From an uncultured Alphaproteobacteria bacterium (GTDB taxonomy: Bacteria > Pseudomonadota > Alphaproteobacteria > CAAHEQ01 > UBA3637), in assembly GCA_947627155.1 (NCBI GenBank), contig CANQUX010000005.1:13513-77512 (forward strand): DNA of 64,000 nucleotides. Direction: 5' to 3'. Position 1 is the first letter of the stretch; each line of letters begins with the position of its first letter. The position numbers were made by a program, and so were the translations under genes. Shown one piece after another: positions 1 to 51,340 of the stretch. A model generated the notes under the pieces. It worked only from the letters and a program-made list of their open reading frames with translations. It was not told the origin of the DNA and searched no databases.

Positions 1-846
1 ATTACAACGGGGTCTGCTTGAATCCTTGCAATCCGTATGCTCTATACATTCCACACACTCGTGATTTGCTACATCACAAACAGATCTTGGAGCACTGCAA
101 TTGCCATCTCCCACACACTCCACACACGTATTACTCTCTTTATCGCATACCTGTGACTCTTCACAATCTTCATCTTTTGCACACCAACCTTCGGGACGAT
201 TCGAATCATAATTGCCGTTCACATCCGCCGCATCGAACTCAACATAAATTTCATTATTTTCATCACTGGTACATGAATCACCTCCTGTGTAGGACAAACC
301 ATTGATATCCATTTCCAAACGGCCGTCCATGGCGGCAACAAGCGTTGTGAGGGGCTTACAAACACCTTTTGAAATGTTCCCCACGACAATATAATAAGCA
401 TCTGCCTCACGACAATTATAAAGCTCATTTTTACTCTCTTTATTACCTCTGATGATACAATCATAATCAACGGGATAACGATCATATTGTGTTGATAAAT
501 GCCCGCTGTAATCTTCATTTTCTGGTGTATCATCATAAGGATCACCTAATAACAATTCTTCATTCCCCAAAGCGTATTTTACCTTTAAATCGTTACGCAT
601 TAAGTTAATTTCATTGGCAATTTGATCGGCTTGATAGTAGTTCATGGCTAATTTATAGCCGACAATCCCGCCGATTGATAAAATAGCAATAATGGCGAGC
701 ACCCCGAGCATTTCAATCATGCTCCGCCCGCTTTGCGATTGTGTTTTGATGCTATTTTGCTTTTCTTCTTCCCCGCTCACGATTTGTTCTTTATTTCTTT
801 GCATTTCTGCGTAGTTTAGCTGATTTTTTCTTGCATATTTCGTCAT
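1..846 (-). CDS. Modular type IV pilin-like protein, paralog A. Partial: start codon at 846, 3' end lies beyond the window start. Carries a prepilin-type N-terminus followed by Cys-rich repeats
   Basis: Reverse-strand translation from the ATG at 846 gives MTKYARKNQ...SQSG|RSMIEMLGVLAIIAILSIGGIVGYKLAMNYYQADQIANEINLMRNDLKVKYALGNEELLLGDPYDD.... This is >95% identical to paralog D over about 270 aa. It then becomes C-like (CVEC..DC..P.C) repeats. A conserved RBS (aaagggag) and leader lie upstream. It is missing from the ORF track only because no stop codon falls in the window. Confidence 0.7.
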   Translation of the reverse strand, partial: MTKYARKNQLNYAEMQRNKEQIVSGEEEKQNSIKTQSQSGRSMIEMLGVLAIIAILSIGGIVGYKLAMNYYQADQIANEINLMRNDLKVKYALGNEELLLGDPYDDTPENEDYSGHLSTQYDRYPVDYDCIIRGNKESKNELYNCREADAYYIVVGNISKGVCKPLTTLVAAMDGRLEMDINGLSYTGGDSCTSDENNEIYVEFDAADVNGNYDSNRPEGWCAKDEDCEESQVCDKESNTCVECVGDGNCSAPRSVCDVANHECVECIEHTDCKDSSRPRCN

Positions 847-882
847 TTTTGACTCCCTTTCACTCTACGAATAGCATAAAAT

Positions 883-1038
883 AAACGTACCTTTAATGCA
901 ACGCGGATTCGGGGGTAAAATTACCCTCAAAAATTGTTGAAATAGCCTTTTTATAACTATTTGATATTGCATTTATTTTCCTCTAAACTAAATTTTTTTT
1001 GAAAGAATCAAAAAAAGTGTTGCAAAAATCGTACGTTT
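883..1038 (-). promoter_or_regulatory. Conserved leader segment of paralog A, bounded by 20 bp imperfect inverted repeats. The arms are AAACGTACCTTTAATGCAAC and GTTGCAAAAATCGTACGTTT. This is a candidate invertible or operator-controlled promoter/5'UTR
   Basis: The same about 156 bp IR-flanked segment is present upstream of all four pilin-like paralogs. The arms are almost invariant while the interior diverges. Confidence 0.5.
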
Positions 1039-1077
1039 TTTTTGTGCAACACTCCCCAAAATAAAACTCTTTTTTGC

Positions 1078-1105
1078 TTGACATTATTTTGAATATCCTT
1101 ATACT
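1078..1105 (+). promoter_or_regulatory. Sigma70-like promoter (TTGACA-16 bp-TATACT) firing rightward toward the IR hairpin and repeat R1
   Basis: Consensus -35 TTGACA at 1078-1083 and -10 TATACT at 1100-1105. Confidence 0.4.
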
Positions 1106-1192
1106 TTTAGACAGGGTAACTGATATGCGCCCCCAAAGTGTAAACTTTTCTTGTAAAAGAATAGATTTTATGCTTTTTTTATAAAACCGGAT

Positions 1193-1255
1193 GATCGAAA
1201 GATGGTAAGATTTAGTATTAACATTATTTCGAATGATAATTACCATCTTTCGGTC
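1193..1255. repeat. 16 bp inverted repeat (GATCGAAAGATGGTAA / TTACCATCTTTCGGTC, 15/16 matches) with an about 31 nt spacer; predicted large hairpin
   Basis: Direct inspection of the sequence. Confidence 0.6.
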
Positions 1256-1333
1256 GCCTCTCATTAAAGTCATTATTTTTTCTCTATTGTTCACAATATT
1301 TTCCCCCTTTTAACAGGCGATGATTCTTTTCTT

Positions 1334-1672
1334 TTATTTTCGACGGAAAGTGCTGTCCCGTGAAACGTGGGATAGCGCGGTGTGCCGAAAATAAGAAACG
1401 GAAAGCAGCAATATTGATATTTTCTCTGATTTTCGGCACATAGCGGGACGTCACTTTTCGCGACGTCCCACACCCGCCGAGAATCAGAGAAAGGAAGCAA
1501 GGCAAACAGATAATTTTTCTCTTTCATGGGTGAAAATCGTGTTGTTAAGCAATTTTCCCCTTTGTCGGTGGGTGGAAAGTAATGAAACACTCCCTCTTTT
1601 CCTCTATCGGCGGGTGTGATGCGCTGCTGAAAGGAGCGCATCGCTATGGGCCGATAGGAGAAAATGAGCGGC
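1334..1672. repeat. GC-rich structured repeat element R, copy 1 (about 339 bp). Candidate ncRNA or regulatory element; the second copy is at 48563..48902
   Basis: About 93% nucleotide identity to copy 2. It contains several perfect or near-perfect hairpins: GGGACGTCACTTTTCGCGACGTCCC, GATGCGCT..AGCGCATC, and TCTCTGATTTTCGG..CCGAGAATCAGAGA. GC content is far above that of the surrounding intergenic DNA. Confidence 0.6.
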
Positions 1673-1685
1673 AGGCGGGCTGGTC

Positions 1686-3098
1686 TCACTCACATAACGC
1701 GGAGTAGGAGGCGTTGCCATTGGTGGTGTAGACGTAACCATAGTCAAGGGAGACGTTGTACGCGAAGCAGGAATCTATTTTATTTTCCAACCAGACTCTG
1801 TCTCTTGTCTTACTGCTAAAATCATCTTTCAAATCCGTCCTTGTCTGACTGTTACATGTGCCAAGCCCCACCACACTGCCACACCCGATGCTTGCCCGCG
1901 TTGCTTGCTTCCTTCCTAATGCCTCGCAGAACCGCCCTGCACTCCACCAGTTCATCTCCGTACTTTCTGCATCTTCCGGCCACGCTAATGCAAAGCCGGT
2001 TTTCTTTCCTATTACTTTATCTTTGCTCGCATTCCGGCATTCACTCTTATGAAAGCTATTTCCTCCAAATTTATTAGGGTCAAATTCTTTGCCGTCACCA
2101 CATTGATACCCCCAATACATGTAGCAATACTCTCCCAGCCCGCAATCAGCATTGCTTTCGCATTCTCCGACGCGCTCCTTATCACATCCGCCGTTTTCAA
2201 GTGATGCTTTCCATTCTTTACTTGTGTCACTGCTACAAACGCATTTTCCACCCTCCGGTTTACTGTCTTCCGGACATTCTGTGCATTTAGTGCCGTCCCA
2301 ATATGGTGTAGCAGTGCTGCATACACAGTCTTCGCCATCTTCGCTAAGCTCTGCTCCCGCCGGACAAGCACACTTTCTACCGGTCCATACCTTTCCGCCC
2401 GAACAACCCGCGCAACAGCCGCCGTTACAGGTTTTCTCGGTGTCCTCACAGGTGCATTCGCCCTTATCGTCACTCAACGTTGTACCTCTCGGACATTCTG
2501 CCGGCACGGGGTCATCATCTTGCGGCGCATCGCCTTGTTCCGTGTCTGTTGGCGGATTGCTGCTTCCGCCGCTCACCCCGCCTATATCTTTGGTCGAAAA
2601 GGCGACCATTACTTCATTCGTTTCACCGCAGAAATTATCCTGCTCATCATAATAACTTTTGTCACCTATTTTTATATCAGCCGTATCGTCCATGTTATCT
2701 AACAAGGCTACCAACGGTTTACACACTCCCTCAGGAATGTTTGATAACGTAAACGAATAGCCTTTTTCCGTTTCACCCAATATCTCAATCGGATAAGCTA
2801 TCTCAATGCCATAATTACTGCCAAAATTTAAGTGTTTTTCATCGTCGTATGGCGAGCCGAGCAATAATTCGTCCACCCCGCGCGCAACTTTCATTTTTGC
2901 ATCGGTACGCATCAGGTTAATTTCATTTGCAATCTGATTCGCTTGATATCGATTCATGGCCATTCTGTATCCTGCTATACCGCCAATGCTTAACACCCCG
3001 ATAATAGCCAAAACGCCCAACATTTCAATCATTGAACGGCCTTCTTGAGCTTGATTTTGAACTTGTTTGAACTCTTTTTTCTTTATTTTATTGCTCAT
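1686..3098 (-). CDS. Modular type IV pilin-like protein, paralog B (470 aa). Domains in order: prepilin-type N-terminus, Cys-rich region, C-terminal C-type-lectin-like domain
   Basis: The N-terminus QEG|RSMIEMLGVLAIIGVLSIGGIAGY has the prepilin peptidase site and Glu+5. Many CxxC/DC motifs follow. The C-terminus MNWWSAGRFCEALG...SALCE is CTLD-like. An RBS and the conserved leader lie upstream. Confidence 0.8.
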   Translation of the reverse strand: MSNKIKKKEFKQVQNQAQEGRSMIEMLGVLAIIGVLSIGGIAGYRMAMNRYQANQIANEINLMRTDAKMKVARGVDELLLGSPYDDEKHLNFGSNYGIEIAYPIEILGETEKGYSFTLSNIPEGVCKPLVALLDNMDDTADIKIGDKSYYDEQDNFCGETNEVMVAFSTKDIGGVSGGSSNPPTDTEQGDAPQDDDPVPAECPRGTTLSDDKGECTCEDTEKTCNGGCCAGCSGGKVWTGRKCACPAGAELSEDGEDCVCSTATPYWDGTKCTECPEDSKPEGGKCVCSSDTSKEWKASLENGGCDKERVGECESNADCGLGEYCYMYWGYQCGDGKEFDPNKFGGNSFHKSECRNASKDKVIGKKTGFALAWPEDAESTEMNWWSAGRFCEALGRKQATRASIGCGSVVGLGTCNSQTRTDLKDDFSSKTRDRVWLENKIDSCFAYNVSLDYGYVYTTNGNASYSALCE

Positions 3099-3131
3099 TT
3101 TCTGCTCCCTTTCATAACAAATAGCATAAAT

Positions 3132-3288
3132 TAAACGTACCTTTAATGCAACGCGGTTTCGGGGATAATTTTACCCCTAAAAAGTGTTGAAACAAGCCTG
3201 TTATAACCCGTTGATATTGCATTAAAATTACCTCCATATAAATTTTTTTTGAAAAAATCAAAAAAAAGTGTTGCAAAAATCGTACGTT
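3132..3288 (-). promoter_or_regulatory. Conserved IR-flanked leader segment of paralog B
   Basis: Arms AAACGTACCTTTAATGCAAC (3132-3151) and GTTGCAAAAATCGTACGTTT (3269-3288). It is homologous to leaders A, C and D. Confidence 0.5.
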
Positions 3289-3303
3289 TTTTTGATGCAT
3301 ATT

Positions 3304-7145: not shown

Positions 7146-7412
7146 CTACCGTTTCATGGCATACCGAATCACCGACCATAAGCCGGCAAATCCGCCGAAA
7201 ATTGTTAAGCCCGCCGTTAAAAGAGACGATGTGTTAAACAGATTTTGACACAAAACACCCAACGAAAGTCCGATTAAAACGCACCCGAACAAATTTGTAA
7301 TCATTTCAACAATGGTTTGATAGCCGTGCAAATTCGAACCCGTTTTTTGGGGTTCCTGTTGCTTTTTTTGAGCCGCAATTTTTTTTGCCAAATCATCTGT
7401 TCTTTTTGTCAT
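7146..7412 (-). CDS. atpI: AtpI-like small hydrophobic protein encoded upstream of atpB
   Basis: 88 aa with two TM helices, at the expected operon position. Confidence 0.4.
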   Translation of the reverse strand: MTKRTDDLAKKIAAQKKQQEPQKTGSNLHGYQTIVEMITNLFGCVLIGLSLGVLCQNLFNTSSLLTAGLTIFGGFAGLWSVIRYAMKR

Positions 7413-8080
7413 TTTCCCTCCAACTTTTTTTGAACGTCTCTTAAAATAATTGCCGTATCCGTGCCGACAATTCTTTCAGGAACCTGTTGATTTAAAACAA
7501 CAATGGTCGGCGTGGCGCGGACAACATATAACTCGGATAAATTGTTGCGTTGCTGCATAATTTGCTTGCGCAGCGCCTCATTGGAAACACAAGCTTCGAT
7601 GGCCTGTTCGTTTTCGGCATTAACACCGGCAAATTCCGCAATGATTTTCCGCGGTTTTTCAGCATACGCCAACTCTTTTTGATGCGTAAACATTTTTTCC
7701 ATAAAGGCTTCATAGTTTTGAGGCGGAATACACCGTGCATAAATGGCACCCGTCATAGCGCGCGAGTCATAGGGCATATCAACATAAATCAATTTTGCCT
7801 GATTGGTTGCCACAAAGTTTTTTAACAACTCCGGCCACACCTGTTGATGAAAAACCGCACAATGAGAACAACTCATTGAGGAAAAAACATAAATTGTTTT
7901 CGGATTGCTTTTATCGCCGAAAATTCTTAAATCAAACGGCTTTAAATCCGTTGCGATTAAAGAAGTCGGAACGGTATTTTCTTGTGCATTCGTTTCAACG
8001 GCGAACGCAGACTTTATTTGCAACATGCCGCAAATAACGCCCGTCAGTAAAATACCGCAAAGTGTTTTTTGAAAACGCAT
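7409..8080 (-). CDS. DsbA-like thiol:disulfide oxidoreductase (periplasmic, CSHC active site)
   Basis: Signal peptide and the thioredoxin-fold CxxC motif in FSSMSCSHCAVFH. Confidence 0.6.
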   Translation of the reverse strand: MRFQKTLCGILLTGVICGMLQIKSAFAVETNAQENTVPTSLIATDLKPFDLRIFGDKSNPKTIYVFSSMSCSHCAVFHQQVWPELLKNFVATNQAKLIYVDMPYDSRAMTGAIYARCIPPQNYEAFMEKMFTHQKELAYAEKPRKIIAEFAGVNAENEQAIEACVSNEALRKQIMQQRNNLSELYVVRATPTIVVLNQQVPERIVGTDTAIILRDVQKKLEGK

Positions 8081-17319: not shown

Positions 17320-18624
17320 ATGTTTTTTAAAGCACCAAATCCGGTTAAATTAACACAACCGACAACACCAACGGCCATGCCCATACCAACACCCATGCCG
17401 CAACAACAGGCTTCTTTTACACCCGAACCGATACCGAGTGCTCCGGCTCCTTTGCCGGAATCGACGGTACCGCCGGAACAAACGGAAACGCCAGCAATTT
17501 CACCCGTTCAGGTCACAGAAGCACCGGCCGTAAATCCGTATGCAAAACCGGCCGGCTATGTTGAGCCGCAGCAACAGGAACCTGCGCCGGAAACACATGT
17601 TACGGTAAATACTATAGAGCCGCATGAAGAAATTTTACCGAACGGTGATAAAGTCTTCAAGGCAGCTTCTTTAAAAGATGTCAGTTTTTCGGATATTTGG
17701 TATACACCCGAAAAAATAGCCTATATTCGGGATAAATCCACCAAATTTGCACTTATTCCGTTTGAAACGAACGATTTGGAAGATTTTTACAAAATGTTGG
17801 AACAAGGCTATACGGGCGCTTCCTCCTATGCCTGCCGATTTAAAGGCGAATCGTATCGTATCGAACGAGTCGTTACAACAACGGGCATTCAATACAATTG
17901 CCGTAAAATGCCTGTTTCAACACCGAATTTATATACATTGGGCATTCCCGATCCGATTACAAAATATTTGGCAACATTGGCAACGGAAGCCGGCTTAATT
18001 TTGTTTGCCGGTCCGACGGGTATGGGAAAAACAACCACAGCCTCTGCTTTAATGAGAGAATTTTTGGAAAATCACGGCGGCTTTTTATATACGATTGAAG
18101 ATCCGCCGGAAATGCCGCTGGACGGTTTATATCACGCCAGAAACGGCGCATTGGGATTGTGCAAACAATCACCGGTGGAAAACGAGCGCTGGGAAGACGG
18201 CTTAAAATCGGCGTTACGTTCTCGTCCGCGTTATATTTTGGTTGGCGAAATCAGAGCGCCGGAGGTTGCCTCGCAGGTTTTACGGGCAGCCACTTCCGGA
18301 CACTTGGTGTTATCCACCATTCACGCCACCAGCGTGGAAGATGCTTTGAATTCCATGATTAAGTATGCCTCCGGTGCCGGATTAGATGAAAAACTGGTCG
18401 CTGACTTGTTGGCACGCGGTATTTTAGCGGTTGTTCATCAAAAACTGGAAGGTACACTCACATTACACCCTGTTGTTCAAACGTGTTTTGCCAATCCGAA
18501 TCCGTTAATGCCCGATCAAATGCGCAACGCCATTCGGGAGGGACGAATCAGCTTGGGAACTTTAATGGAGGCGCAACAAACAAAATTGTTCCGCGGGGCT
18601 TCCATGTTTAAAGAAATGCGTTAA
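17320..18624 (+). CDS. PilT/VirB11-family secretion ATPase with an about 130 aa Pro-rich N-terminal extension
   Basis: Walker A GPTGMGKTTT, Asp box TIEDPPE, Walker B ILVGEIR, His box GHLVLSTIHA, and PilT-like C-terminal motif MRNAIRE. Confidence 0.75.
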   Translation: MFFKAPNPVKLTQPTTPTAMPIPTPMPQQQASFTPEPIPSAPAPLPESTVPPEQTETPAISPVQVTEAPAVNPYAKPAGYVEPQQQEPAPETHVTVNTIEPHEEILPNGDKVFKAASLKDVSFSDIWYTPEKIAYIRDKSTKFALIPFETNDLEDFYKMLEQGYTGASSYACRFKGESYRIERVVTTTGIQYNCRKMPVSTPNLYTLGIPDPITKYLATLATEAGLILFAGPTGMGKTTTASALMREFLENHGGFLYTIEDPPEMPLDGLYHARNGALGLCKQSPVENERWEDGLKSALRSRPRYILVGEIRAPEVASQVLRAATSGHLVLSTIHATSVEDALNSMIKYASGAGLDEKLVADLLARGILAVVHQKLEGTLTLHPVVQTCFANPNPLMPDQMRNAIREGRISLGTLMEAQQTKLFRGASMFKEMR

Positions 18625-27990: not shown

Positions 27991-28064
27991 GCGAGTGTAG
28001 CTCAATGGCAGAGCGGAAGCTTCCCAAGCTTAAGACGAGGGTTCGATTCCCTTCACTCGCTCCA
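27991..28064 (+). tRNA. tRNA-Gly (anticodon CCC), 74 nt with CCA encoded
   Basis: Manual cloverleaf: acceptor stem GCGAGTG/CACTCGC, anticodon loop TTCCCAA, T-loop TTCGATT. Confidence 0.85.
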
Positions 28065-28150
28065 TTTTTTTGAATAAGATATCATGCGAAAGTATGTAAA
28101 AATGCAGGGGCATCTACTTTGTTTTGAAATATTTTAAAGCGGAGTTAAAC

Positions 28151-28858
28151 ATGATATATGGCTACATTCGTGTTTCTTCCGACAAGCAAACGTTGGAAAA
28201 TCAAAAATTTGAAATTCGCAAATTTGCTTTACGCAACAGCATTCACATTGATCGCTGGGTTGAAGAAACCATTTCCACGCGCAAACCGCTTGAAAAGCGC
28301 AAATTAAGTCGATTATTAAATATCTTAACGGCAAATGATATTTTAATTACGTCCGAAATATCACGACTGGGGCGTTCATTATTGGAAGTAATGGGTATTT
28401 TACAAAATTGTTTATTAAAGGGGTGTCAAATCTGGACGATTAAAGAAAACTATCGGCTGGGTGCTGATTTACAATCCAAAGTAATGGCATTTGCGTTTGG
28501 TTTATCGGCAGAAATCGAGCGACAACTTATTTCCGATCGCACGCGGTCATCATTGGAAAATTTAAAGGCAAAAGGTATTAAGCTGGGGCGGCCGGTGGGT
28601 GCAAACGGTGCTGTTTTAAAATTACCGGAGAGTTTGGAAAAAATATTTCTTCTGATTAAAAACGGTTGTTCACAAGCCGAAGTTTCACGCATTATGGGTG
28701 TTCACAAGTCAACTATTTGTCGTTTGGTTAAGAAAAATTATCCGGAACTGATGGAAGAGGAAGAAGATTTATTGTTTACGTTGGAATCGCCACTCTCCGT
28801 TCCGTCCGATTTAATGCTTGATTCAACAACTTATCCGCCGTCTACAAACGAAAATTAA
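28151..28858 (+). CDS. Serine recombinase of the resolvase/invertase family
   Basis: N-terminal catalytic motif YGYIRVSSDKQ and a C-terminal HTH region. RBS-supported ATG at 28151. Confidence 0.85.
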   Translation: MIYGYIRVSSDKQTLENQKFEIRKFALRNSIHIDRWVEETISTRKPLEKRKLSRLLNILTANDILITSEISRLGRSLLEVMGILQNCLLKGCQIWTIKENYRLGADLQSKVMAFAFGLSAEIERQLISDRTRSSLENLKAKGIKLGRPVGANGAVLKLPESLEKIFLLIKNGCSQAEVSRIMGVHKSTICRLVKKNYPELMEEEEDLLFTLESPLSVPSDLMLDSTTYPPSTNEN

Positions 28859-30054
28859 AAATGCTTCGGCAACCGGCGTTGACGAGGAGTAACAATACCT
28901 AACTCCATCAATCGTTTCATATATAATGACCCGCGAATAAATAAAATTTTTTCAGGCGGAATTAAAAAATACAAAGAAGAAGTAAATCCGCCGACCCAAT
29001 CGGGTTCATGACCGGTTAAGAAAAACGCTTCAACAGGAATTTGAGAATTAAGCGTATCATATTTCGGAAGAGCTTTTTGCAACAAATGACATTCTTTTTT
29101 GGCACTATAAGAAGGATGGCATTTTAAAAACACACGCGCAGGAATATTTTTGAAAAAAGAGAAAACACTTATTTCCTGATTGACTGATTTTTCATTTCCG
29201 AAAAAATATCCGGCAGTTAAAAACACCTTTTTTTGCGGCGTTGATAAAGCTTGAACGGTTACCGAATCAATTTCAAAAAAATGCTCCAACAACTTTTTTT
29301 CATGCGGAGCAAGCCGAGCAGCTTCCGATTTTAAACTGATATTTTTAATATTCTTACGACCTATCCAATTGACAAACGTTTTTAATTTTTTATCTTTAAT
29401 AATTTCATCAGCACGACACAAATGGTAGGTAGCCGGCACCAACTTTCCGATAGAAGCTTTCCAAAATGCCACATCTTCATTTTTAATTTCACTGAAAAAA
29501 TTCGGATTTTTTTCAAAATTCCGTAAAATTTTAACATCGGGTTTAAACCGCATCCAAAAACCATATTCATTCCCGATAACATTACAAGCGCCGTCTTCAT
29601 ATAAATGAATATGCTCAATTCGAGAGGGGAGTTCTTTAATCAGCCGTAACAAGAAATAGCGCGTTTGATTGATATTTGAATAAACTTCAAATTGAGCTTT
29701 CGGATATCGATCGGCAATTCTTTTTAATGTTTTGATAAAAGAAGCCGAATGATACCCCCATAAACCTTCCGACGCCGCCAGATTAACTTCAACGGCATTT
29801 ATTTTGGATAAATCAAAAATTCTTGCGCGATTGGGGTAGCGATGAAAGAAAAAAACTTTTAATTCATTTTTTTCATGAGCCGCTTTAATAAATTCCACAC
29901 TTTCCCAAAGAACAGGTGAAGTAGCATAAACTTCAAAAAAAACTTTAATTTTACGAATATGTTGGGGGGGGGGGGTATTGTATAAGCATAAGAGAAGAAC
30001 GGTCAAAACCGTTAAAATAAATGTCTTTAAAAAAACTCTAACGGAATGTTTCAC
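28855..30054 (-). CDS. Membrane-anchored hypothetical protein with a C12 tract in codons 26-30. Possibly a glycosyltransferase-like LOS-modifying enzyme (uncertain); candidate for phase variation
   Basis: N-terminal signal-anchor. The poly-C tract encodes TPPPQ. No confident family assignment was possible by eye. Confidence 0.5.
   Translation of the reverse strand: MKHSVRVFLKTFILTVLTVLLLCLYNTPPPQHIRKIKVFFEVYATSPVLWESVEFIKAAHEKNELKVFFFHRYPNRARIFDLSKINAVEVNLAASEGLWGYHSASFIKTLKRIADRYPKAQFEVYSNINQTRYFLLRLIKELPSRIEHIHLYEDGACNVIGNEYGFWMRFKPDVKILRNFEKNPNFFSEIKNEDVAFWKASIGKLVPATYHLCRADEIIKDKKLKTFVNWIGRKNIKNISLKSEAARLAPHEKKLLEHFFEIDSVTVQALSTPQKKVFLTAGYFFGNEKSVNQEISVFSFFKNIPARVFLKCHPSYSAKKECHLLQKALPKYDTLNSQIPVEAFFLTGHEPDWVGGFTSSLYFLIPPEKILFIRGSLYMKRLMELGIVTPRQRRLPKHF
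29964..29975. repeat. Homopolymeric G12 tract (C12 on the coding strand) inside the 5' end of the 28855..30054 CDS
   Basis: Counted directly in the sequence. Confidence 0.9.
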
Positions 30055-48342: not shown

Positions 48343-48497
48343 AAACGTACCTTTAATGCAACGCGGATTCCGGGGCAAAATTACCTTTAAAAAGCAAAAA
48401 ATCACCCTTAAAAAACAATCGAAAAATCAATGAATTCCGGCCAAAATAAATTTTTTTTGAAAAAATCAAAAAAAAGTGTTGCAAAAATCGTACGTTT
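48343..48497 (-). promoter_or_regulatory. Conserved IR-flanked leader segment of paralog C
   Basis: Arms at 48343-48362 and 48478-48497. Confidence 0.5.
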
Positions 48498-48562
48498 AAT
48501 TGAGGAAAGAGAAGCAGGGAAAATATGTTTGTTTTATTTGGTATTCGTTGGGCTACTCTCTG

Positions 48563-48902
48563 TTATTTTCGGCGGGAAGTGCTGTCCCGTGAAACGTGGG
48601 ACAGCGCGGTGTGCCGAAAATAAGAAACGGAAAGCGGCAATATTGATATTTTCTCTGATTCTCGACACATAGCAGGACGTCACTTTTCACGACGTCCCAC
48701 ACCCGCCGAGAATCAGAGAAAGGAAGCAAGGCCAACAGATAACTTTTCTCTTTCATGGTTGAAAATTGTGTTGTTAACGAACTTCCCCCTTTTGTCGGTG
48801 GGTGGAAAGTAATGAAACACTTCCTCTTTTCCTCTATCGGCGGATGTGATGCGCTGCTGAAAGGAGCGCATCGCTATGGGCCGATAGGGGGAAAGTGAGC
48901 GG
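48563..48902. repeat. GC-rich structured repeat element R, copy 2; lies between the divergent leaders of paralogs C and D
   Basis: About 93% identical to 1334..1672, with a compensatory change in the TCTCTGATT(C/T)TCG(A/G) stem. Confidence 0.6.
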
Positions 48903-48929
48903 TTTATTTTGGGAAGCGTTGCACAAATT

Positions 48930-49085
48930 AAACGTACGATTTTTGCAACACTTTTTTTTGATTTTTTCAAAAAAAATTTATTTTGGACGGAATTCATTGA
49001 TTTTTCGAGTGTTTTTTAAGGGTGAATTTTGGCAGTTTGAAGGCAAATTTTGCCCCCGAAACTGCGTTGCATTAAAGGTACGTTT
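48930..49085 (+). promoter_or_regulatory. Conserved IR-flanked leader segment of paralog D
   Basis: Arms AAACGTACGATTTTTGCAAC (48930-48949) and GTTGCATTAAAGGTACGTTT (49066-49085). Confidence 0.5.
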
Positions 49086-49121
49086 ATTTTATGCTATTCG
49101 CAGAGTGAAAGGGAGTCAAAA

Positions 49122-50669
49122 ATGACAAGACAATTCAAAAAAAATCAATTAAAACAATTTCAAAATCAAGCGCAACAAGGCCGGTCAATGGTTGAAATGC
49201 TCGGCGTACTGGCTATTATTGCTATTTTGTCAATCGGCGGGATTGTCGGCTATAAATTAGCCATGAATTATTATCAGGCCGATCAGATTGCGAATGAAAT
49301 TAACTTAATGCGTAACGATTTAAAGGTTAAATACGCTTTGGGAAATGAAGAATTGTTGCTCGGGGATCCTTATGATGATACACCAGAAAATGAACATTAC
49401 CGCGGGCATTTATCAACACAATATGATCGTTATCCCGTTGATTATGATTGCATCATCAGAGGTAATAAAGAGAGTAAAAATGAGCTTTATAATTGCCGCG
49501 AAGCAGATGCTTATTATATTGCCGTGGGGAACATTTCAAAGGGTGTTTGTAAACCGCTTACAACGCTTGTTGCCGCCATGGACGGCCGTTTGGAAATGGA
49601 TATCAATGGTTTGTCCTACACAGGAGGTGATTCATGTACCAGTGATGAAAATAATGAAATTTATGTTGAATTCGATGCGGCGGATGTAAACGGCAATTAC
49701 GATTCGGGGCGCCCAAAAGGCTGGTGTGCCAAAGATGACGATTGCGAAGGATTATCAACCCCTGTTTGCGATAAGGAAAACAATACGTGTGTGGAATGTA
49801 CGGAAAATACGCATTGCGCCTCAAATATATGTCGGAAAGATCACACTTGCGGTGAATGCACAAAAGATTCGGATTGTGTCAATCCGCGCCCGATATGCGA
49901 TACGGAATCGGCAACATGTATGAGATGTGCTGTTGACGATGAATGTCAAAGAGCCAACGTGAATAAACCTGTTTGCGACATGGGTACCGGCGCTTGTTGC
50001 GATGATCCGCTCATGACATGGAATGGCAGCGAATGCGTTTGCCCCGAAGATTATGCCAAATCGGAAACCAGTTCCGGTCAAGCTATTTGTTTACCTTATT
50101 GCGAGGAAAATAATATCGGTATTATTTTAATGACGGATACTTCCGGCTCAATGACTCTGCAAATGTTTGAAAATGCCAACAAAGCCAAAGAGGCGCTTCA
50201 TATTCCGGAAGATATTCCGTCAGCCGTTTATTGGTGTGCTGCTTGTTATGATGCACATTGTTTGAAAAACACGCCATCCGGTCCGGTAAATGAACATCTT
50301 TCTTACGGAAAACATTCTGTCAGTGAAATTCGCGCTGCTCTTCAAACAAATGTATCGGACAGGCTCAAAGTAACCGGTGATTTTGGTGGCAGTATTTATA
50401 AAATTATGGATTATTGCTCAACCATTAAAGAAAAACTCATTATTATTGTTTGGTGGGATAATCAAAAACCGGCCGATACCGGTAATGATATACCTGCATT
50501 TTCAAAATTGAAAGAAAAATGCCCCGAAACGGTTATTTATAATGTATCACCGAATGCCAAATCATTTGCAAGCGCTGATAAATCTTTTGATTTAAATGAC
50601 ATTACAACGGAATATACGGAAGTTTTAAATCAATTCATTCAAAAAGAAGGTTGTGTTGAGCGAGAATAA
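49122..50669 (+). CDS. Modular type IV pilin-like protein, paralog D (515 aa). Domains in order: prepilin N-terminus, Cys-rich repeats, C-terminal vWA-like domain
   Basis: MTRQFKKNQLKQFQNQAQQG|RSMVEMLG...; vWA MIDAS-like motif IILMTDTSGSMT. Confidence 0.8.
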   Translation: MTRQFKKNQLKQFQNQAQQGRSMVEMLGVLAIIAILSIGGIVGYKLAMNYYQADQIANEINLMRNDLKVKYALGNEELLLGDPYDDTPENEHYRGHLSTQYDRYPVDYDCIIRGNKESKNELYNCREADAYYIAVGNISKGVCKPLTTLVAAMDGRLEMDINGLSYTGGDSCTSDENNEIYVEFDAADVNGNYDSGRPKGWCAKDDDCEGLSTPVCDKENNTCVECTENTHCASNICRKDHTCGECTKDSDCVNPRPICDTESATCMRCAVDDECQRANVNKPVCDMGTGACCDDPLMTWNGSECVCPEDYAKSETSSGQAICLPYCEENNIGIILMTDTSGSMTLQMFENANKAKEALHIPEDIPSAVYWCAACYDAHCLKNTPSGPVNEHLSYGKHSVSEIRAALQTNVSDRLKVTGDFGGSIYKIMDYCSTIKEKLIIIVWWDNQKPADTGNDIPAFSKLKEKCPETVIYNVSPNAKSFASADKSFDLNDITTEYTEVLNQFIQKEGCVERE

Positions 50670-50672
50670 AAA

Positions 50673-50693
50673 AAGCGCCATCAATGCGCTTTT
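50673..50693. terminator. Short hairpin terminator between paralog D and tRNA-Ser
   Basis: AGCGC..GCGCT stem followed by a T-run. Confidence 0.4.
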
Positions 50694-50695
50694 CG

Positions 50696-50783
50696 TGGCG
50701 GAGAGTACAGGACTCGAACCTGTGCATCCTTTTAGGGGATGACGGATTAGCAATCCGCTGCATTACCGCTCTGCCAACTCTCC
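50696..50783 (-). tRNA. tRNA-Ser (anticodon GCU), class II with a long variable arm, 88 nt
   Basis: Manual cloverleaf: acceptor stem GGAGAGT/ACTCTCC, anticodon loop TTGCTAA, variable arm CATCC..GGATG, T-loop TTCGAGT. Confidence 0.85.
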
Positions 50784-50831
50784 GTATTTTTGTATTTTAC
50801 TTATTTTTTTTAAAAAGTCAATTTTTATTTC

Positions 50832-51131
50832 TTAATATGCAAATATTTTTTGTATAATCTCTACAATCTGCCGATGAATTTGATCGGGCAACAAACCGAT
50901 TTTCAGTTTTAAATCTTTTTGATTAACGGGTTGAATTAAATCCATGGCAATATAGGCTTTTTTTCCACGTAATCCGATTCCGACCCGCGTCGGTAATTGA
51001 CTGGAACTAACGGTGATAGGAGCTACCAAAGCATACGGCAATGCCTCGTTTAATTCATCGGGCGAAACAATTAAACAAGGCTTTTCAACACCTTGAAACA
51101 CACCCATATAAACTTCAAATCTTTTTACCAT
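50832..51131 (-). CDS. mazF: MazF/PemK-family toxin (mRNA interferase)
   Basis: MVKRFEVYMGVFQGVEKPCLIVSPDELNEALPYALVAPITVSS. Confidence 0.7.
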   Translation of the reverse strand: MVKRFEVYMGVFQGVEKPCLIVSPDELNEALPYALVAPITVSSSQLPTRVGIGLRGKKAYIAMDLIQPVNQKDLKLKIGLLPDQIHRQIVEIIQKIFAY

Positions 51132-51340
51132 ATCCACTCCGCTTGCCAATTTTGTTGTCCGTTTAAATCGGGATGAATTTTCTCGCGCCAATTTGCCCGA
51201 TCTTGACTTTGAGCCGTTAAAATAACGCGTTTTTGTTCAACCGTTAAATTGATTTCCGATTCAAATCCGCATTCGGCAATCACGCTTTTAGGCAATCGAA
51301 TGCCGTGTGAATTTCCTATTTTCGTGAGTTTCACAAGCAT
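51125..51340 (-). CDS. mazE: MazE/AbrB-family antitoxin
   Basis: LTKIGNSHGIRLPKSVIAE matches the SpoVT/AbrB swapped-hairpin motif. Overlaps the toxin start. Confidence 0.65.
   Translation of the reverse strand: MLVKLTKIGNSHGIRLPKSVIAECGFESEINLTVEQKRVILTAQSQDRANWREKIHPDLNGQQNWQAEWIW

What the first reader, a model, noticed from the sequence alone, without database searches (positions are those of the whole stretch)
1..3300. Family of large modular type-IV-pilin-like proteins (prepilin N-terminus, Cys-rich repeats, C-type-lectin or vWA module); locus 1
Genes A (1..846, partial) and B (1686..3098) belong to a four-member paralogous family, together with genes C and D at 46759..50669.

The shared architecture has four parts:
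1. An N-terminus that matches the class III (prepilin) signal. A basic leader ends in Gly, followed by RSMIEMLGVLAIIAILSIGG with the diagnostic Glu at +5. This is the site cut by prepilin peptidase in type IV pilins and pseudopilins.
2. A conserved roughly 110 aa N-terminal module.
3. Tandem Cys-rich repeats (C.EC...DC....P.C, about 22-25 aa each), reminiscent of EGF-like or extracellular Cys-rich modules.
4. A C-terminal adhesive module. In B and C this is a C-type-lectin-like domain (MNWWSA.RFC.ALG ... ALCE/ALCW). In D it is a vWA domain with MIDAS motif DTSGSM.

Such 470-550 aa pilins with eukaryote-like binding modules grafted onto a pilin N-terminus are unusual. They resemble the modular pilins of Streptococcus sanguinis. 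Neither Cys-rich repeats nor CTLD modules are classical pilin components.

They could form or tip a type IV filament or pseudopilus used for host or particle adhesion. No prepilin peptidase or assembly ATPase lies next to them. A PilT-family ATPase is present elsewhere, at 17320.
Basis: partly seen in the sequence, partly recalled or inferred. Interest (0 to 1): 0.8.

Follow-up and report, generated by a model that had tools for sequence, protein, structure and literature searches.

The report
Modular type IVb pilin adhesin family
An uncultured gut alphaproteobacterium carries several copies of a large pilin-like gene: each copy has the same pilus-subunit front end but a different sticky end (lectin-like, von Willebrand A-like or unknown), and is probably an interchangeable adhesin carried on a type IV pilus.

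Summary

- **The genes.** A (1-846, partial), B (1686-3098), C (46759-48306) and D (49122-50669) are paralogs.
- **N-terminus.** All four carry an invariant prepilin-type motif, G|RSM(I/V)EMLGVLAII…. The same motif occurs in 224 of 224 relatives examined.
- **Pfam sees none of this.** N_methyl scores below its cut-off, and there is no Lectin_C or VWA hit.
- **Machinery in related gut MAGs.** Short PilS/bundlin pilins with the same N-terminus sit inside a complete type IVb pilus cluster. A prepilin peptidase is a conserved core gene of the lineage. Neither was found in this window, which holds only a PilT-like ATPase.
- **Family size.** The family is large: more than 562 loci in species-representative genomes, and at least 10 copies in one MAG.
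- **Module swapping.** A and D are 98% identical in the pilin module, yet their C-terminal ends are unrelated.

Verdict: a new variant of the known "modular pilin" kind.

The parts
1..846 (-). Gene A, the 5' part (282 codons): long leader, G|RSMIEML signal, pilin module, first Cys-rich repeats. The full-length product is P0020 (486 aa), whose C-terminal module is neither CTLD nor vWA.
882..1038 (-). Conserved upstream cassette of gene A: IR-left 1038-1017 (AAACGTACGATTTTTGCAACAC), a 112-nt AT-rich spacer, and IR-right 904-882 (GCGTTGCATTAAAGGTACGTTTA). It is followed by TATGCT, the RBS AAAGGGAG and the ATG at 846.
1330..1664 (.). About 335 nt of conserved non-coding DNA between B and A, duplicated at 48559-48894 (93-95% identical). 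It is built from roughly 70-nt sub-repeats that are dispersed around family genes in rabbit-gut MAGs.
1686..3098 (-). Gene B, 470 aa, complete modular pilin.
3039..3098 (-). B leader peptide (aa 1-20, basic/polar, ends in Gly20). The predicted prepilin-peptidase cut is between G20 and R21.
   Evidence: model disordered over residues 1-21
2583..3038 (-). B pilin module (aa 21-172): alpha1 helix 22-72, a beta-sheet head, and the conserved Cys pair C126/C157.
2139..2504 (-). B Cys-rich repeat stalk (aa about 199-320), predicted as small beta-hairpins. It follows a disordered Pro/Asp-rich linker (aa 175-198).
1689..2138 (-). B C-terminal compact C-type-lectin-like domain (aa about 321-470, pLDDT 90-98).
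3132..3289 (-). Upstream cassette of gene B (IR-left 3289-3268, IR-right 3154-3132). A terminator-like hairpin lies just upstream at 3333-3311.
46759..48306 (-). Gene C, 515 aa: pilin module, Cys-rich repeats, CTLD-like module (assigned by sequence motifs shared with B; no model was made of C).
48342..48497 (-). Upstream cassette of gene C (IR-left 48497-48476, IR-right 48364-48342).
48930..49086 (+). Upstream cassette of gene D (IR-left 48930-48951, IR-right 49064-49086).
49122..50669 (+). Gene D, 515 aa: pilin module (98% identical to A's), Cys-rich repeats, and a C-terminal vWA-fold module (about nt 50106-50666) with DTSGS.
17320..18624 (+). T2SSE-superfamily, PilT-like ATPase (434 aa). It is 51-52% identical to the ATPase that closes the type IVb pilus clusters of L065 and L080.
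7409..8080 (-). DsbA-type thioredoxin (PF13462). It is a plausible periplasmic disulfide catalyst for these proteins, which carry 28-43 Cys each. Inferred link only.

Best explanation
A, B, C and D are modular type IV pilins of the type IVb class.

**Proposed pathway (all steps inferred; none is shown directly)**
1. Each protein is made with a hydrophilic leader (13-70 aa).
2. It is inserted in the inner membrane by the hydrophobic alpha1-N segment.
3. It is cut after the invariant Gly by the lineage's A24 prepilin peptidase.
4. It is taken up through its pilin module by a type IVb pilus machine: secretin/TcpQ, PilO, assembly ATPase, platform protein and a PilT-like ATPase.

Because a disulfide-rich stalk and a bulky binding module hang off the pilin head, they most likely sit at the pilus tip. 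This is where CofB, TcpB, R64 PilV and S. sanguinis PilB are placed.

The paralogs keep the pilin module and exchange the distal module (CTLD-like, vWA, or a third type). This would give the cell a menu of alternative tip adhesins for host, mucus, particle or microbial ligands.

**Shown here:** the sequence motifs, the predicted folds, and the machinery and peptidase in relatives.
**Inferred:** cleavage, incorporation into pili, tip location, and the ligands.
For: **Signal motif**
- G-1, R+1, E+5 and the following ~20-residue hydrophobic segment (+8 to +24) are invariant or nearly so in 224 of 224 sequences.

**Same N-terminus on real pilins**
- In L065 and L080, 190-199-aa pilins (182-184 aa from the conserved Gly) carry it; the one scanned (L065 9184-9762, 192 aa) hits Pfam PilS (2.6e-12) and Bundlin (8.5e-11) above cut-off.
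- These lie in a cluster of TcpQ, secretin, PilO, T2SSE ATPase (8e-65), T2SSF platform and a PilT-like ATPase.

**Peptidase**
- A Peptidase_A24 (PF01478, 1.6e-14) lies 7 kb from a family member in L012.
- It has 165 close homologs (E<=1e-10); in the three contigs read around one of them (P0139; one is a pig-gut metagenome) it sits in the same rpoD-dnaG-yqeY | A24-rodZ-prfA-prmC context, whose downstream part (HTH protein, prfA, prmC) recurs at L012.

**Pilin head (gene B model)**
- alpha1 helix 22-72 plus a beta head, pLDDT 83-93.
- Foldseek probability 0.92-0.98 for TcpA, S. Typhi PilS and CofA.
- The best PDB sequence hit of the module profile is TcpA, E 0.034.

**Distal modules**
- vWA fold: E 1.2e-6, probability 1.0, with DxSxS and the beta4 Asp conserved.

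**Module swapping**
- A and D are 98% identical in the pilin module and about 21% in the last 150 aa.

**Supporting genes in the window**
- A PilT-like ATPase and a DsbA-like protein are present.

**Precedent**
- Modular and tip pilins are described in PMC8179133.
Against: - Pfam N_methyl and TIGR02532 score below their curated cut-offs for all four proteins.
- Arg at +1 is unusual for a pilin. From established knowledge, the +1 position tolerates substitution for cleavage.
- No peptidase, assembly ATPase, platform protein or secretin lies in the 64-kb window, or in the 10 kb beyond its right end. None could be tied to this MAG.
- The large genes have no conserved machinery neighbours in 82 loci.
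- Known type IVb tip pilins are single genes inside the pilus operon. These are 4 to 10 or more scattered copies per genome, up to 1,667 aa.
- The fold assignments rest on AF2 models with pTM about 0.5. The Foldseek E-values for the pilin and CTLD parts are weak (0.025-0.2).
Confidence: 0.62

Rival explanations
1. Pilin-like proteins that are processed by the prepilin peptidase but not built into long pili. They would stay anchored in the inner membrane or form a short pseudopilus or bindosome-like surface layer. The class III signal would then serve as a general export and anchoring tag for many Cys-rich binding proteins, as in the archaeal Sulfolobus bindosome.
For: - The same N-terminus is attached to a very wide range of passengers, 95 to 1,633 aa from the conserved Gly, with many copies per genome.
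- The genes are scattered away from the pilus genes.
- Passengers with up to four tandem CTLD modules (P0254, P0263) look too bulky for a filament subunit.
Against: - The pilin head is strongly conserved beyond the helix, with the conserved GVCKPL…C pair, and is type IVb-like. That argues for subunit-subunit packing.
- Large tip pilins of about 520 aa are known, for example CofB (PMC8179133).
- The organism is diderm (LpxC, YhdP), so an inner-membrane anchor would not reach the surface without a filament and a secretin.
Confidence: 0.2
2. Ordinary signal-anchored (uncleaved) or Sec-cleaved periplasmic or outer-surface proteins whose N-terminus only resembles a prepilin signal.
For: - N_methyl and TIGR02532 HMMs are below threshold.
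- Arg at +1 is atypical.
- One relative of the CTLD module (P0264) carries a normal Sec-type signal.
Against: - G-1 and E+5 are invariant in 224 sequences.
- An identical N-terminus occurs on PilS/bundlin-domain pilins inside a pilus operon.
- The predicted head is a type IVb pilin fold.
- A charged Glu at position 5 of a plain membrane anchor would not be conserved without a function.
Confidence: 0.08
3. Mostly silent donor copies for recombination into one expressed pilin locus, in the manner of Neisseria pilS, rather than independently expressed adhesins.
For: - Near-identical 5' modules with divergent 3' modules.
- Dispersed short repeats around the genes.
- Assemblies break at these genes.
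Against: - Every copy is a full-length intact ORF with its own conserved promoter-like cassette, RBS, start codon and leader.
- Silent pilS cassettes lack exactly these features (established knowledge).
Confidence: 0.05

Closest known systems
Large type IVb minor (tip) pilins: CofB (ETEC CFA/III), TcpB (V. cholerae TCP), PilV (plasmid R64 thin pilus)
   Same: - A type IVb-class pilin module, a flexible linker, and extra beta-rich domains ending in a binding domain.
- Similar size (about 420-520 aa).
- Presumed tip location.
- PilV likewise keeps a constant N-terminal part and swaps C-terminal ends to change binding specificity.
- The head of gene B matches CofA and TcpA best.
   Different: - No detectable sequence homology in the extra domains.
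- The stalk is made of Cys-rich hairpin repeats, and the end is a CTLD-like, vWA or unknown module rather than a beta-repeat plus beta-sandwich.
- The genes are scattered and multi-copy, not one gene inside the pilus operon.
- Variation is by whole-gene paralogs, not a shufflon.
- Arg at +1.
Modular pilins of Streptococcus sanguinis (PilB with a vWA module, PilC with a ConA-like lectin module) and the InterPro-defined modular pilins of Raynaud et al. 2021 (PMC8179133)
   Same: - The concept is identical: a pilin carrier module with a grafted adhesive module.
- Gene D repeats the pilin+vWA architecture with a DxSxS MIDAS motif.
   Different: - S. sanguinis pilins belong to a monoderm type IVa-like system with a canonical IPR012902 signature and a short linker.
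- Here the signature HMMs fail, so these proteins would have been missed by that survey.
- The class is type IVb.
- A long disulfide-rich stalk is interposed.
- The lectin-like module has a CTLD fold, not a ConA-like one.
Compact bacterial C-type-lectin-like or Link-like domains: Bdellovibrio Bd2740 fibre tip domain (8oks), Legionella Lcl C-terminal domain (8q4e), intimin/invasin D-terminal domains
   Same: - The domain sits at the distal tip of an extended adhesin.
   Different: - No sequence similarity.
- The carrier is a pilin rather than a trimeric fibre, collagen-like stalk or autotransporter-type protein.
- No EPN/QPD or WND Ca2+/sugar motifs are seen, so lectin activity is not implied.
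Myxococcus cysteine-rich repeats (as in the outer-membrane exchange protein TraA, NF033759)
   Same: Local match of the CxxCxxxxDCxxxxPxC repeats to the Cys-rich region of TraA (E 1.5e-8 to 2.9e-5).
   Different: - Only the repeat region matches (23-34 bits against a 750-bit family cut-off).
- There is no PA14-like domain or MYXO-CTERM.
- The N-terminal targeting is different.

Membership tests
Type IV pilin (class III signal; Pfam PF07963 N_methyl / TIGR02532) | Hydrophilic leader ending in Gly, then about 20 hydrophobic residues with Glu at +5 | tested here: met
   G-1 and E+5 are invariant in 224 of 224 sequences. The median leader is 20 aa. The hydrophobic stretch runs from +6 to +24.
Type IV pilin (class III signal; Pfam PF07963 N_methyl / TIGR02532) | Signature HMM at or above its curated cut-off | tested here: not met
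   PF07963 scores 11.1-15.4 bits against 21.2. TIGR02532 scores 10-14 bits against 16.3. The signal is real but sub-threshold, so annotation pipelines will miss the family.
Type IV pilin (class III signal; Pfam PF07963 N_methyl / TIGR02532) | Pilin fold: a long alpha1 helix packed on an antiparallel beta-sheet | tested here: met
   [not shown]
Type IV pilin (class III signal; Pfam PF07963 N_methyl / TIGR02532) | Cognate A24 prepilin peptidase in the same genome | tested here: inconclusive
   A peptidase is present in the related rabbit MAG L012, 7 kb from a family member, and is conserved across the lineage. It is not in the window and could not be linked to this MAG.
Type IV pilin (class III signal; Pfam PF07963 N_methyl / TIGR02532) | Assembly machinery (extension ATPase, platform protein, secretin) in the same genome | tested here: inconclusive
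   A complete type IVb-like cluster lies next to same-N-terminus pilins in L065 and L080. The window has only the PilT-like ATPase at 17320-18624.
Type IV pilin (class III signal; Pfam PF07963 N_methyl / TIGR02532) | Leader cleavage and incorporation into filaments | not testable with these tools
   Needs N-terminal sequencing or mass spectrometry of pili.
Type IVb pilin subclass | Long leader, non-Phe +1 residue, larger head with a C-terminal disulfide, and best similarity to TcpA/CofA/BfpA/PilS | tested here: met
   Leaders are at least 13 aa (median 20); the longest values are inflated by gene calls that start in the upstream DNA. +1 is Arg. A conserved Cys pair is present (C126/C157 in B). 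The best fold and profile hits are type IVb pilins. Short paralogs hit Pfam PilS and Bundlin above cut-off.
Modular pilin (sensu Raynaud et al. 2021) | An N-terminal pilin module plus one or more additional, non-pilus-specific modules | tested here: met
   Pilin module plus Cys-rich repeats plus a CTLD-like, vWA or third module. Definition from PMC8179133.
C-type lectin-like domain (Pfam PF00059 Lectin_C) | Sequence match to the family HMM | tested here: not met
   No hit at E<=1. No PDB sequence hit.
C-type lectin-like domain (Pfam PF00059 Lectin_C) | CTLD fold: two helices, two beta-sheets, conserved WxxA…C and C-terminal …C motifs | tested here: met
   [not shown]
C-type lectin-like domain (Pfam PF00059 Lectin_C) | Ca2+/carbohydrate site (EPN/QPD plus WND) in the long-loop region | tested here: not met
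   These motifs are absent from the C-termini of B and C (sequences). The best matches include loop-less CTLD/Link domains (LYVE-1, Bd2740). Lectin activity is therefore not implied.
von Willebrand factor A domain | Sequence match to the Pfam VWA models | tested here: not met
   No hit at E<=1.
von Willebrand factor A domain | Rossmann-like vWA fold with a MIDAS (DxSxS…T…D) | tested here: met
   91 Foldseek PDB hits with E<=1e-3 (NorD, VWF A1, integrin I domains; TM-score to target up to 0.57). DxSxS is in 12 of 12 members and the beta4 Asp is conserved. The MIDAS Thr position is ambiguous.
PilT/PilU retraction ATPase (TIGR01420), for 17320-18624 | Score at or above the family cut-off | tested here: not met
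   114.5 bits against 319.1. It is a T2SSE-superfamily ATPase (PF00437, 6e-31), and is 51-52% identical to the 320-325-aa ATPase of the L065 and L080 pilus clusters.

The most novel reading that the evidence does not exclude
The paralogs form a switchable repertoire of pilus-tip adhesins, a 'distributed shufflon'. Each gene carries the same 157-bp upstream cassette: 22-nt inverted repeats with an AAACGTACG core around a spacer of fixed length (110-113 nt). A resolvase/invertase-type serine recombinase (28124-28858) might flip this cassette; homologs of that recombinase lie within 0.5 kb of pilin genes in three other MAGs. Cells would then display one or a few adhesins at a time. New specificities would arise by recombination between the near-identical pilin modules. 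This would be phase and antigenic variation of type IV pilus tips in an uncultured gut commensal, or possibly an epibiont of other microbes.
Probability: 0.15. Interest if true: 0.8.

Novelty: new variant of a known kind. Interest (0 to 1): 0.58.

Why it matters
Type IV pili are usually thought of as one filament with one or a few adhesive specificities. Here an uncultured but widespread group of gut Alphaproteobacteria (rabbit, ruminant, pig, mouse, human) appears to invest heavily in dozens of pilin-carried binding modules. These include folds best known from animal cell-surface recognition: C-type-lectin-like and vWA.

- **Hidden from annotation.** The family is invisible to Pfam, NCBIfam and hence InterPro-based surveys. 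The diversity of modular pilins is therefore underestimated.
- **Colonisation.** If these are tip adhesins, they are prime candidates for how these bacteria bind mucus, epithelium, food particles or other microbes.
- **A natural experiment.** The constant-carrier, variable-module design shows how new pilus specificities can evolve.
- **Assembly problems.** The repeats around these genes break metagenome assemblies, so the family is probably under-represented in MAGs.

Tried and rejected
- Pfam and NCBIfam on all four proteins gave only sub-threshold N_methyl and a local TraA repeat match. There was no Lectin_C, VWA or EGF hit.
- Pfam on P0020 and on five large relatives (455-1,667 aa) gave nothing.

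**Machinery in or near the window**
- Annotation of about 40 ORFs found none apart from the PilT-like ATPase.
- The contig beyond 64000 holds none either.
- Look-ups to go beyond position 1 failed: P0020 is not on record, and other assemblies break at gene B.

**Linking a prepilin peptidase to this MAG by sample accession**
- Searches returned different samples, so no link could be made.

**Conserved neighbours of the large genes**
- Clustering 1,174 ORFs from 82 loci showed no machinery neighbours and only scattered contexts.

**Structured RNA in the conserved intergenic DNA**
- No Rfam family at gathering score, and nothing credible at E<=1.

**Inversion of the upstream cassette**
- All 27 or so copies have the spacer in the same orientation.
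- The cassette has no match in JGI metagenome contigs.
- My recollection that B. fragilis Mpi sites share the core ARACGTWCGT could not be verified in the paper library. It remains a lead only.

**Sequence searches of the distal modules against PDB**
- Nothing was found.

**Ideas rejected**
- Silent recombination cassettes: every copy has a promoter-like region, RBS and leader.
- A plain Sec signal.

Full report
**1. What is in the sequence**

The four ORFs exist as described.
- A: 1-846 (-). It runs off the window; its full product is P0020, 486 aa.
- B: 1686-3098 (-), 470 aa.
- C: 46759-48306 (-), 515 aa, identical to P0001.
- D: 49122-50669 (+), 515 aa.

All four begin with a basic/polar leader that ends in Gly. 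This is followed by RSM(I/V)EMLGVLAII(A/G)(I/V)LSIGGI(V/A)GY.

An alignment with relatives shows five successive parts:
- the leader;
- a conserved module of 150-167 aa, with a nearly invariant GVCKPL…C…N…F pattern;
- a linker;
- Cys-rich repeats;
- a C-terminal module.

The window is a chromosomal stretch of a diderm anaerobe. It encodes LpxC, YhdP, NrdD, DnaA, NusA/IF-2, ATP synthase a/b/b' and PBP1A. G+C is about 40%.

**2. The organism and the size of the family**

A word-indexed search found 328 homologs, none with a Pfam domain or a name.

A scan of one genome per GTDB species found more than 562 loci. Almost all are titled "MAG: Alphaproteobacteria bacterium", from rabbit, ruminant, mouse and human guts; a pig-gut metagenome contig of the lineage turned up. 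Full-length relatives with the Cys-rich and C-terminal modules are concentrated in rabbit-gut MAGs. More distant species share the N-terminal 60-130 aa.

The loci I fetched encode 107 proteins with this N-terminus. Measured from the conserved Gly, they range from 95 to 1,633 aa. One MAG, Lapin-024 bin64, has at least 10 copies.

Across 224 sequences, G-1, R+1 and E+5 are invariant and the hydrophobic segment from +8 to +24 is nearly so. Positions +2 to +7 were used to select the set, so only the others count as evidence.

**3. Is the N-terminus a prepilin signal?**

PF07963 gives 11-15 bits against 21.2, and TIGR02532 gives 10-14 bits against 16.3.

Context in relatives supports the prepilin reading instead. 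Two MAG loci (L065, roe deer caecum; L080) hold the following genes in a row:
- TcpQ (PF10671);
- a secretin (PF00263);
- PilO (PF06864);
- a 562-aa T2SSE ATPase (8e-65);
- a T2SSF platform protein;
- a bundlin-like small protein;
- one or two short pilins (190-199 aa);
- a 320-325-aa PilT-like ATPase.

The short pilin scanned (192 aa) hits Pfam PilS and Bundlin above cut-off, and all three carry the same SGRSMVEMLGVLAIIGVLSVGGISGY N-terminus. That arrangement is a type IVb pilus operon.

The window's ATPase at 17320-18624 is 51-52% identical to the PilT-like ATPase of those clusters. It is not a TIGR01420 member by score.

A 234-aa Peptidase_A24 (GAGDVK motif; PF01478, 1.6e-14) lies 7 kb from a CTLD-bearing family member in the rabbit MAG L012. 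It has 165 close homologs. One source names a homolog "prepilin peptidase [Alphaproteobacteria bacterium]". In the three contigs read around one homolog it sits in the same housekeeping context, rpoD-dnaG-yqeY | A24-rodZ-prfA-prmC, and the downstream genes recur at L012. It therefore looks like a core gene of the lineage.

These enzymes show only the A24 peptidase domain. N-methylation may therefore be absent, which would fit the odd Arg at +1. This is inference.

I could not show that this particular genome has either the peptidase or the pilus cluster.

**4. Predicted structures**

Gene B, with a 123-sequence alignment, gave mean pLDDT 79:
- the leader (1-21) is disordered;
- a helix spans 22-72;
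- a four-stranded head with one helix follows (pLDDT 83-93);
- a disordered Pro/Asp-rich linker spans 175-198;
- small beta-hairpin Cys repeats follow;
- a C-terminal domain has pLDDT 90-98.

Foldseek shows the same two groups with weak E-values (0.025-0.2) but high probabilities.

A profile of the pilin module finds TcpA as its best PDB sequence match (E 0.034). It aligns GVCKPL with the AQCKTL stretch of TcpA, whose Cys is, from memory, one partner of TcpA's disulfide.

The CTLD-like module lacks the EPN/QPD and WND motifs, so lectin activity is not implied.

Gene D has the same head. Its C-terminal Rossmann-like domain gives 91 Foldseek hits at E<=1e-3; those listed are all vWA-fold domains (best 1.2e-6; VWF A1 TM-score 0.57). 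DxSxS and the beta4 Asp are conserved in all 12 members of this subtype. The MIDAS Thr is ambiguous.

**5. Modules are exchanged**

- Clustering the C-terminal 170 aa gives three module types: the CTLD-like type is the majority (that cluster is probably inflated by matches in the Cys-rich repeats), 12 members are vWA, and 13 carry a third type that includes gene A (P0020).
- The third type has no Pfam hit and no PDB sequence hit.
- A and D are 98% identical over the 167-aa pilin module but unrelated at the C-terminus.
- The A and C loci are a segmental duplication.
- The CTLD-like module is rare. There are only 35 hits at E<=1e-3 among 1.84 billion representative proteins. It sits mostly on proteins with the pilin N-terminus, sometimes in 2-4 tandem copies, and once behind a Sec signal.

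**6. How it most likely works**

These are modular type IVb-class pilins. After insertion in the membrane and cleavage by the A24 peptidase, the pilin module would dock into a type IVb pilus. Given the bulk of the passenger, this would most likely be at the tip. The disulfide-rich stalk would then hold out a binding module.

This matches what is known or proposed for CofB, TcpB, R64 PilV and S. sanguinis PilB/PilC (PMC8179133). A DsbA-like protein at 7409-8080 fits the need to oxidise 28-43 cysteines per protein.

Cleavage, incorporation, tip location and ligands are all inferred.

The main rival is that the class III signal is used as a general display or anchor tag, without assembly into long filaments.

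**7. Comparison with what is known, and novelty**

The concept is known: modular pilins, type IVb tip pilins, and a vWA-pilin. The following features are new.
- The class and module combination: a type IVb head, a Myxococcus-type Cys-rich stalk, and a CTLD-like, vWA or unknown module.
- The family cannot be detected by signature databases.
- The scale of the paralog expansion and module swapping.
- The host lineage: uncultured gut Alphaproteobacteria.

I rate it a new variant of a known kind.

**8. Side observations**

Every paralog here, and about 25 homologs in rabbit MAGs, carry the same upstream cassette. It consists of two 22-nt inverted repeats (AAACGTACG(A/T)TTTTTGCAACAC and its near reverse complement) around a 110-113-nt AT-rich spacer. 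These are followed by TATGCT, an RBS and the ATG.

All spacers have the same orientation, so inversion is not shown.

A resolvase-family recombinase lies at 28124-28858. Its homologs sit next to short pilin genes in three other loci.

Genes C and D sit in what looks like an island with a VirD4-type coupling protein, a tRNA gene and a PemK toxin pair.

Noticed in passing
window 882-1038, 3132-3289, 48342-48497, 48930-49086; also L002-L012, L025, L027, L046, L063: Each paralog carries the same upstream cassette: two 22-nt inverted repeats (AAACGTACG(A/T)TTTTTGCAACAC and GYGTTGCATTAAAGGTACGTTTA) flanking an AT-rich spacer of fixed length (110-113 nt) but variable sequence. About 45 nt then lead to the ATG, including a weak TTGCAT-N17-TATGCT promoter-like site. 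It could be an invertible promoter, a pair of operator sites, or a MITE-derived promoter. All 27 or so copies have the same orientation.
   Followed up: partly
window 28124-28858 (+), next to the tRNA at 27991-28061; L068 4205-4801; L054 93-689; L040 6398-6970: A resolvase/invertase-family serine recombinase (PF00239, 4e-30, with a C-terminal HTH). Its homologs lie within about 0.5 kb of short GRSM-type pilin genes in three other MAG loci. L040 has a 29-nt inverted repeat with a 118-nt spacer beside it. This may link to phase variation of pilin genes.
   Followed up: partly
window 1330-1664 and 48559-48894; sub-repeats in L003, L005, L006, L007, L027, L046 and others: A conserved non-coding element of about 335 nt (93-95% identical between the two loci), built from roughly 70-nt units. 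These units are dispersed many times around family genes in rabbit-gut MAGs, with 13 hits in L006. There is no Rfam match. Other assemblies break at these genes, giving 2-2.7-kb contigs.
   Followed up: partly
window about 40900-51340: Genes C and D lie in an island-like region. It holds a VirD4/TraG-type type IV secretion coupling protein (43142-45325), several proteins of unknown function (40905-41468, 42308-43141, 45329-46525), a DUF6362 protein, a low-GC stretch (34% at 40-42 kb), a tRNA gene (50699-50783) and a PemK/MazF toxin with its antitoxin (50832-51340).
   Followed up: no
window 7409-8080 (-): A DsbA-type thioredoxin (PF13462, 1.6e-24) in an anaerobe. It may be relevant to folding the many disulfide-rich surface proteins.
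   Followed up: no
P0006, P0009, P0010, P0036, P0048, P0097 and gene A (window 730-846): The leader peptides vary from 13 to about 70 aa through duplicated modules of the type QNNEPQ…GE..K.NRIKT.SQSG. Some gene calls suggest two or three in-frame Met starts. Such long, repetitive prepilin leaders are unusual.
   Followed up: no
window 28855-30054 (-): A PM0188-like sialyltransferase (PF11477, 8e-9) lies next to the recombinase. It hints at sialylated surface glycans in this gut bacterium.
   Followed up: no
L014 73-1440; L011 and L025 family members: Some family members replace the Cys-rich stalk with long Thr/Pro-rich, mucin-like low-complexity regions.
   Followed up: no
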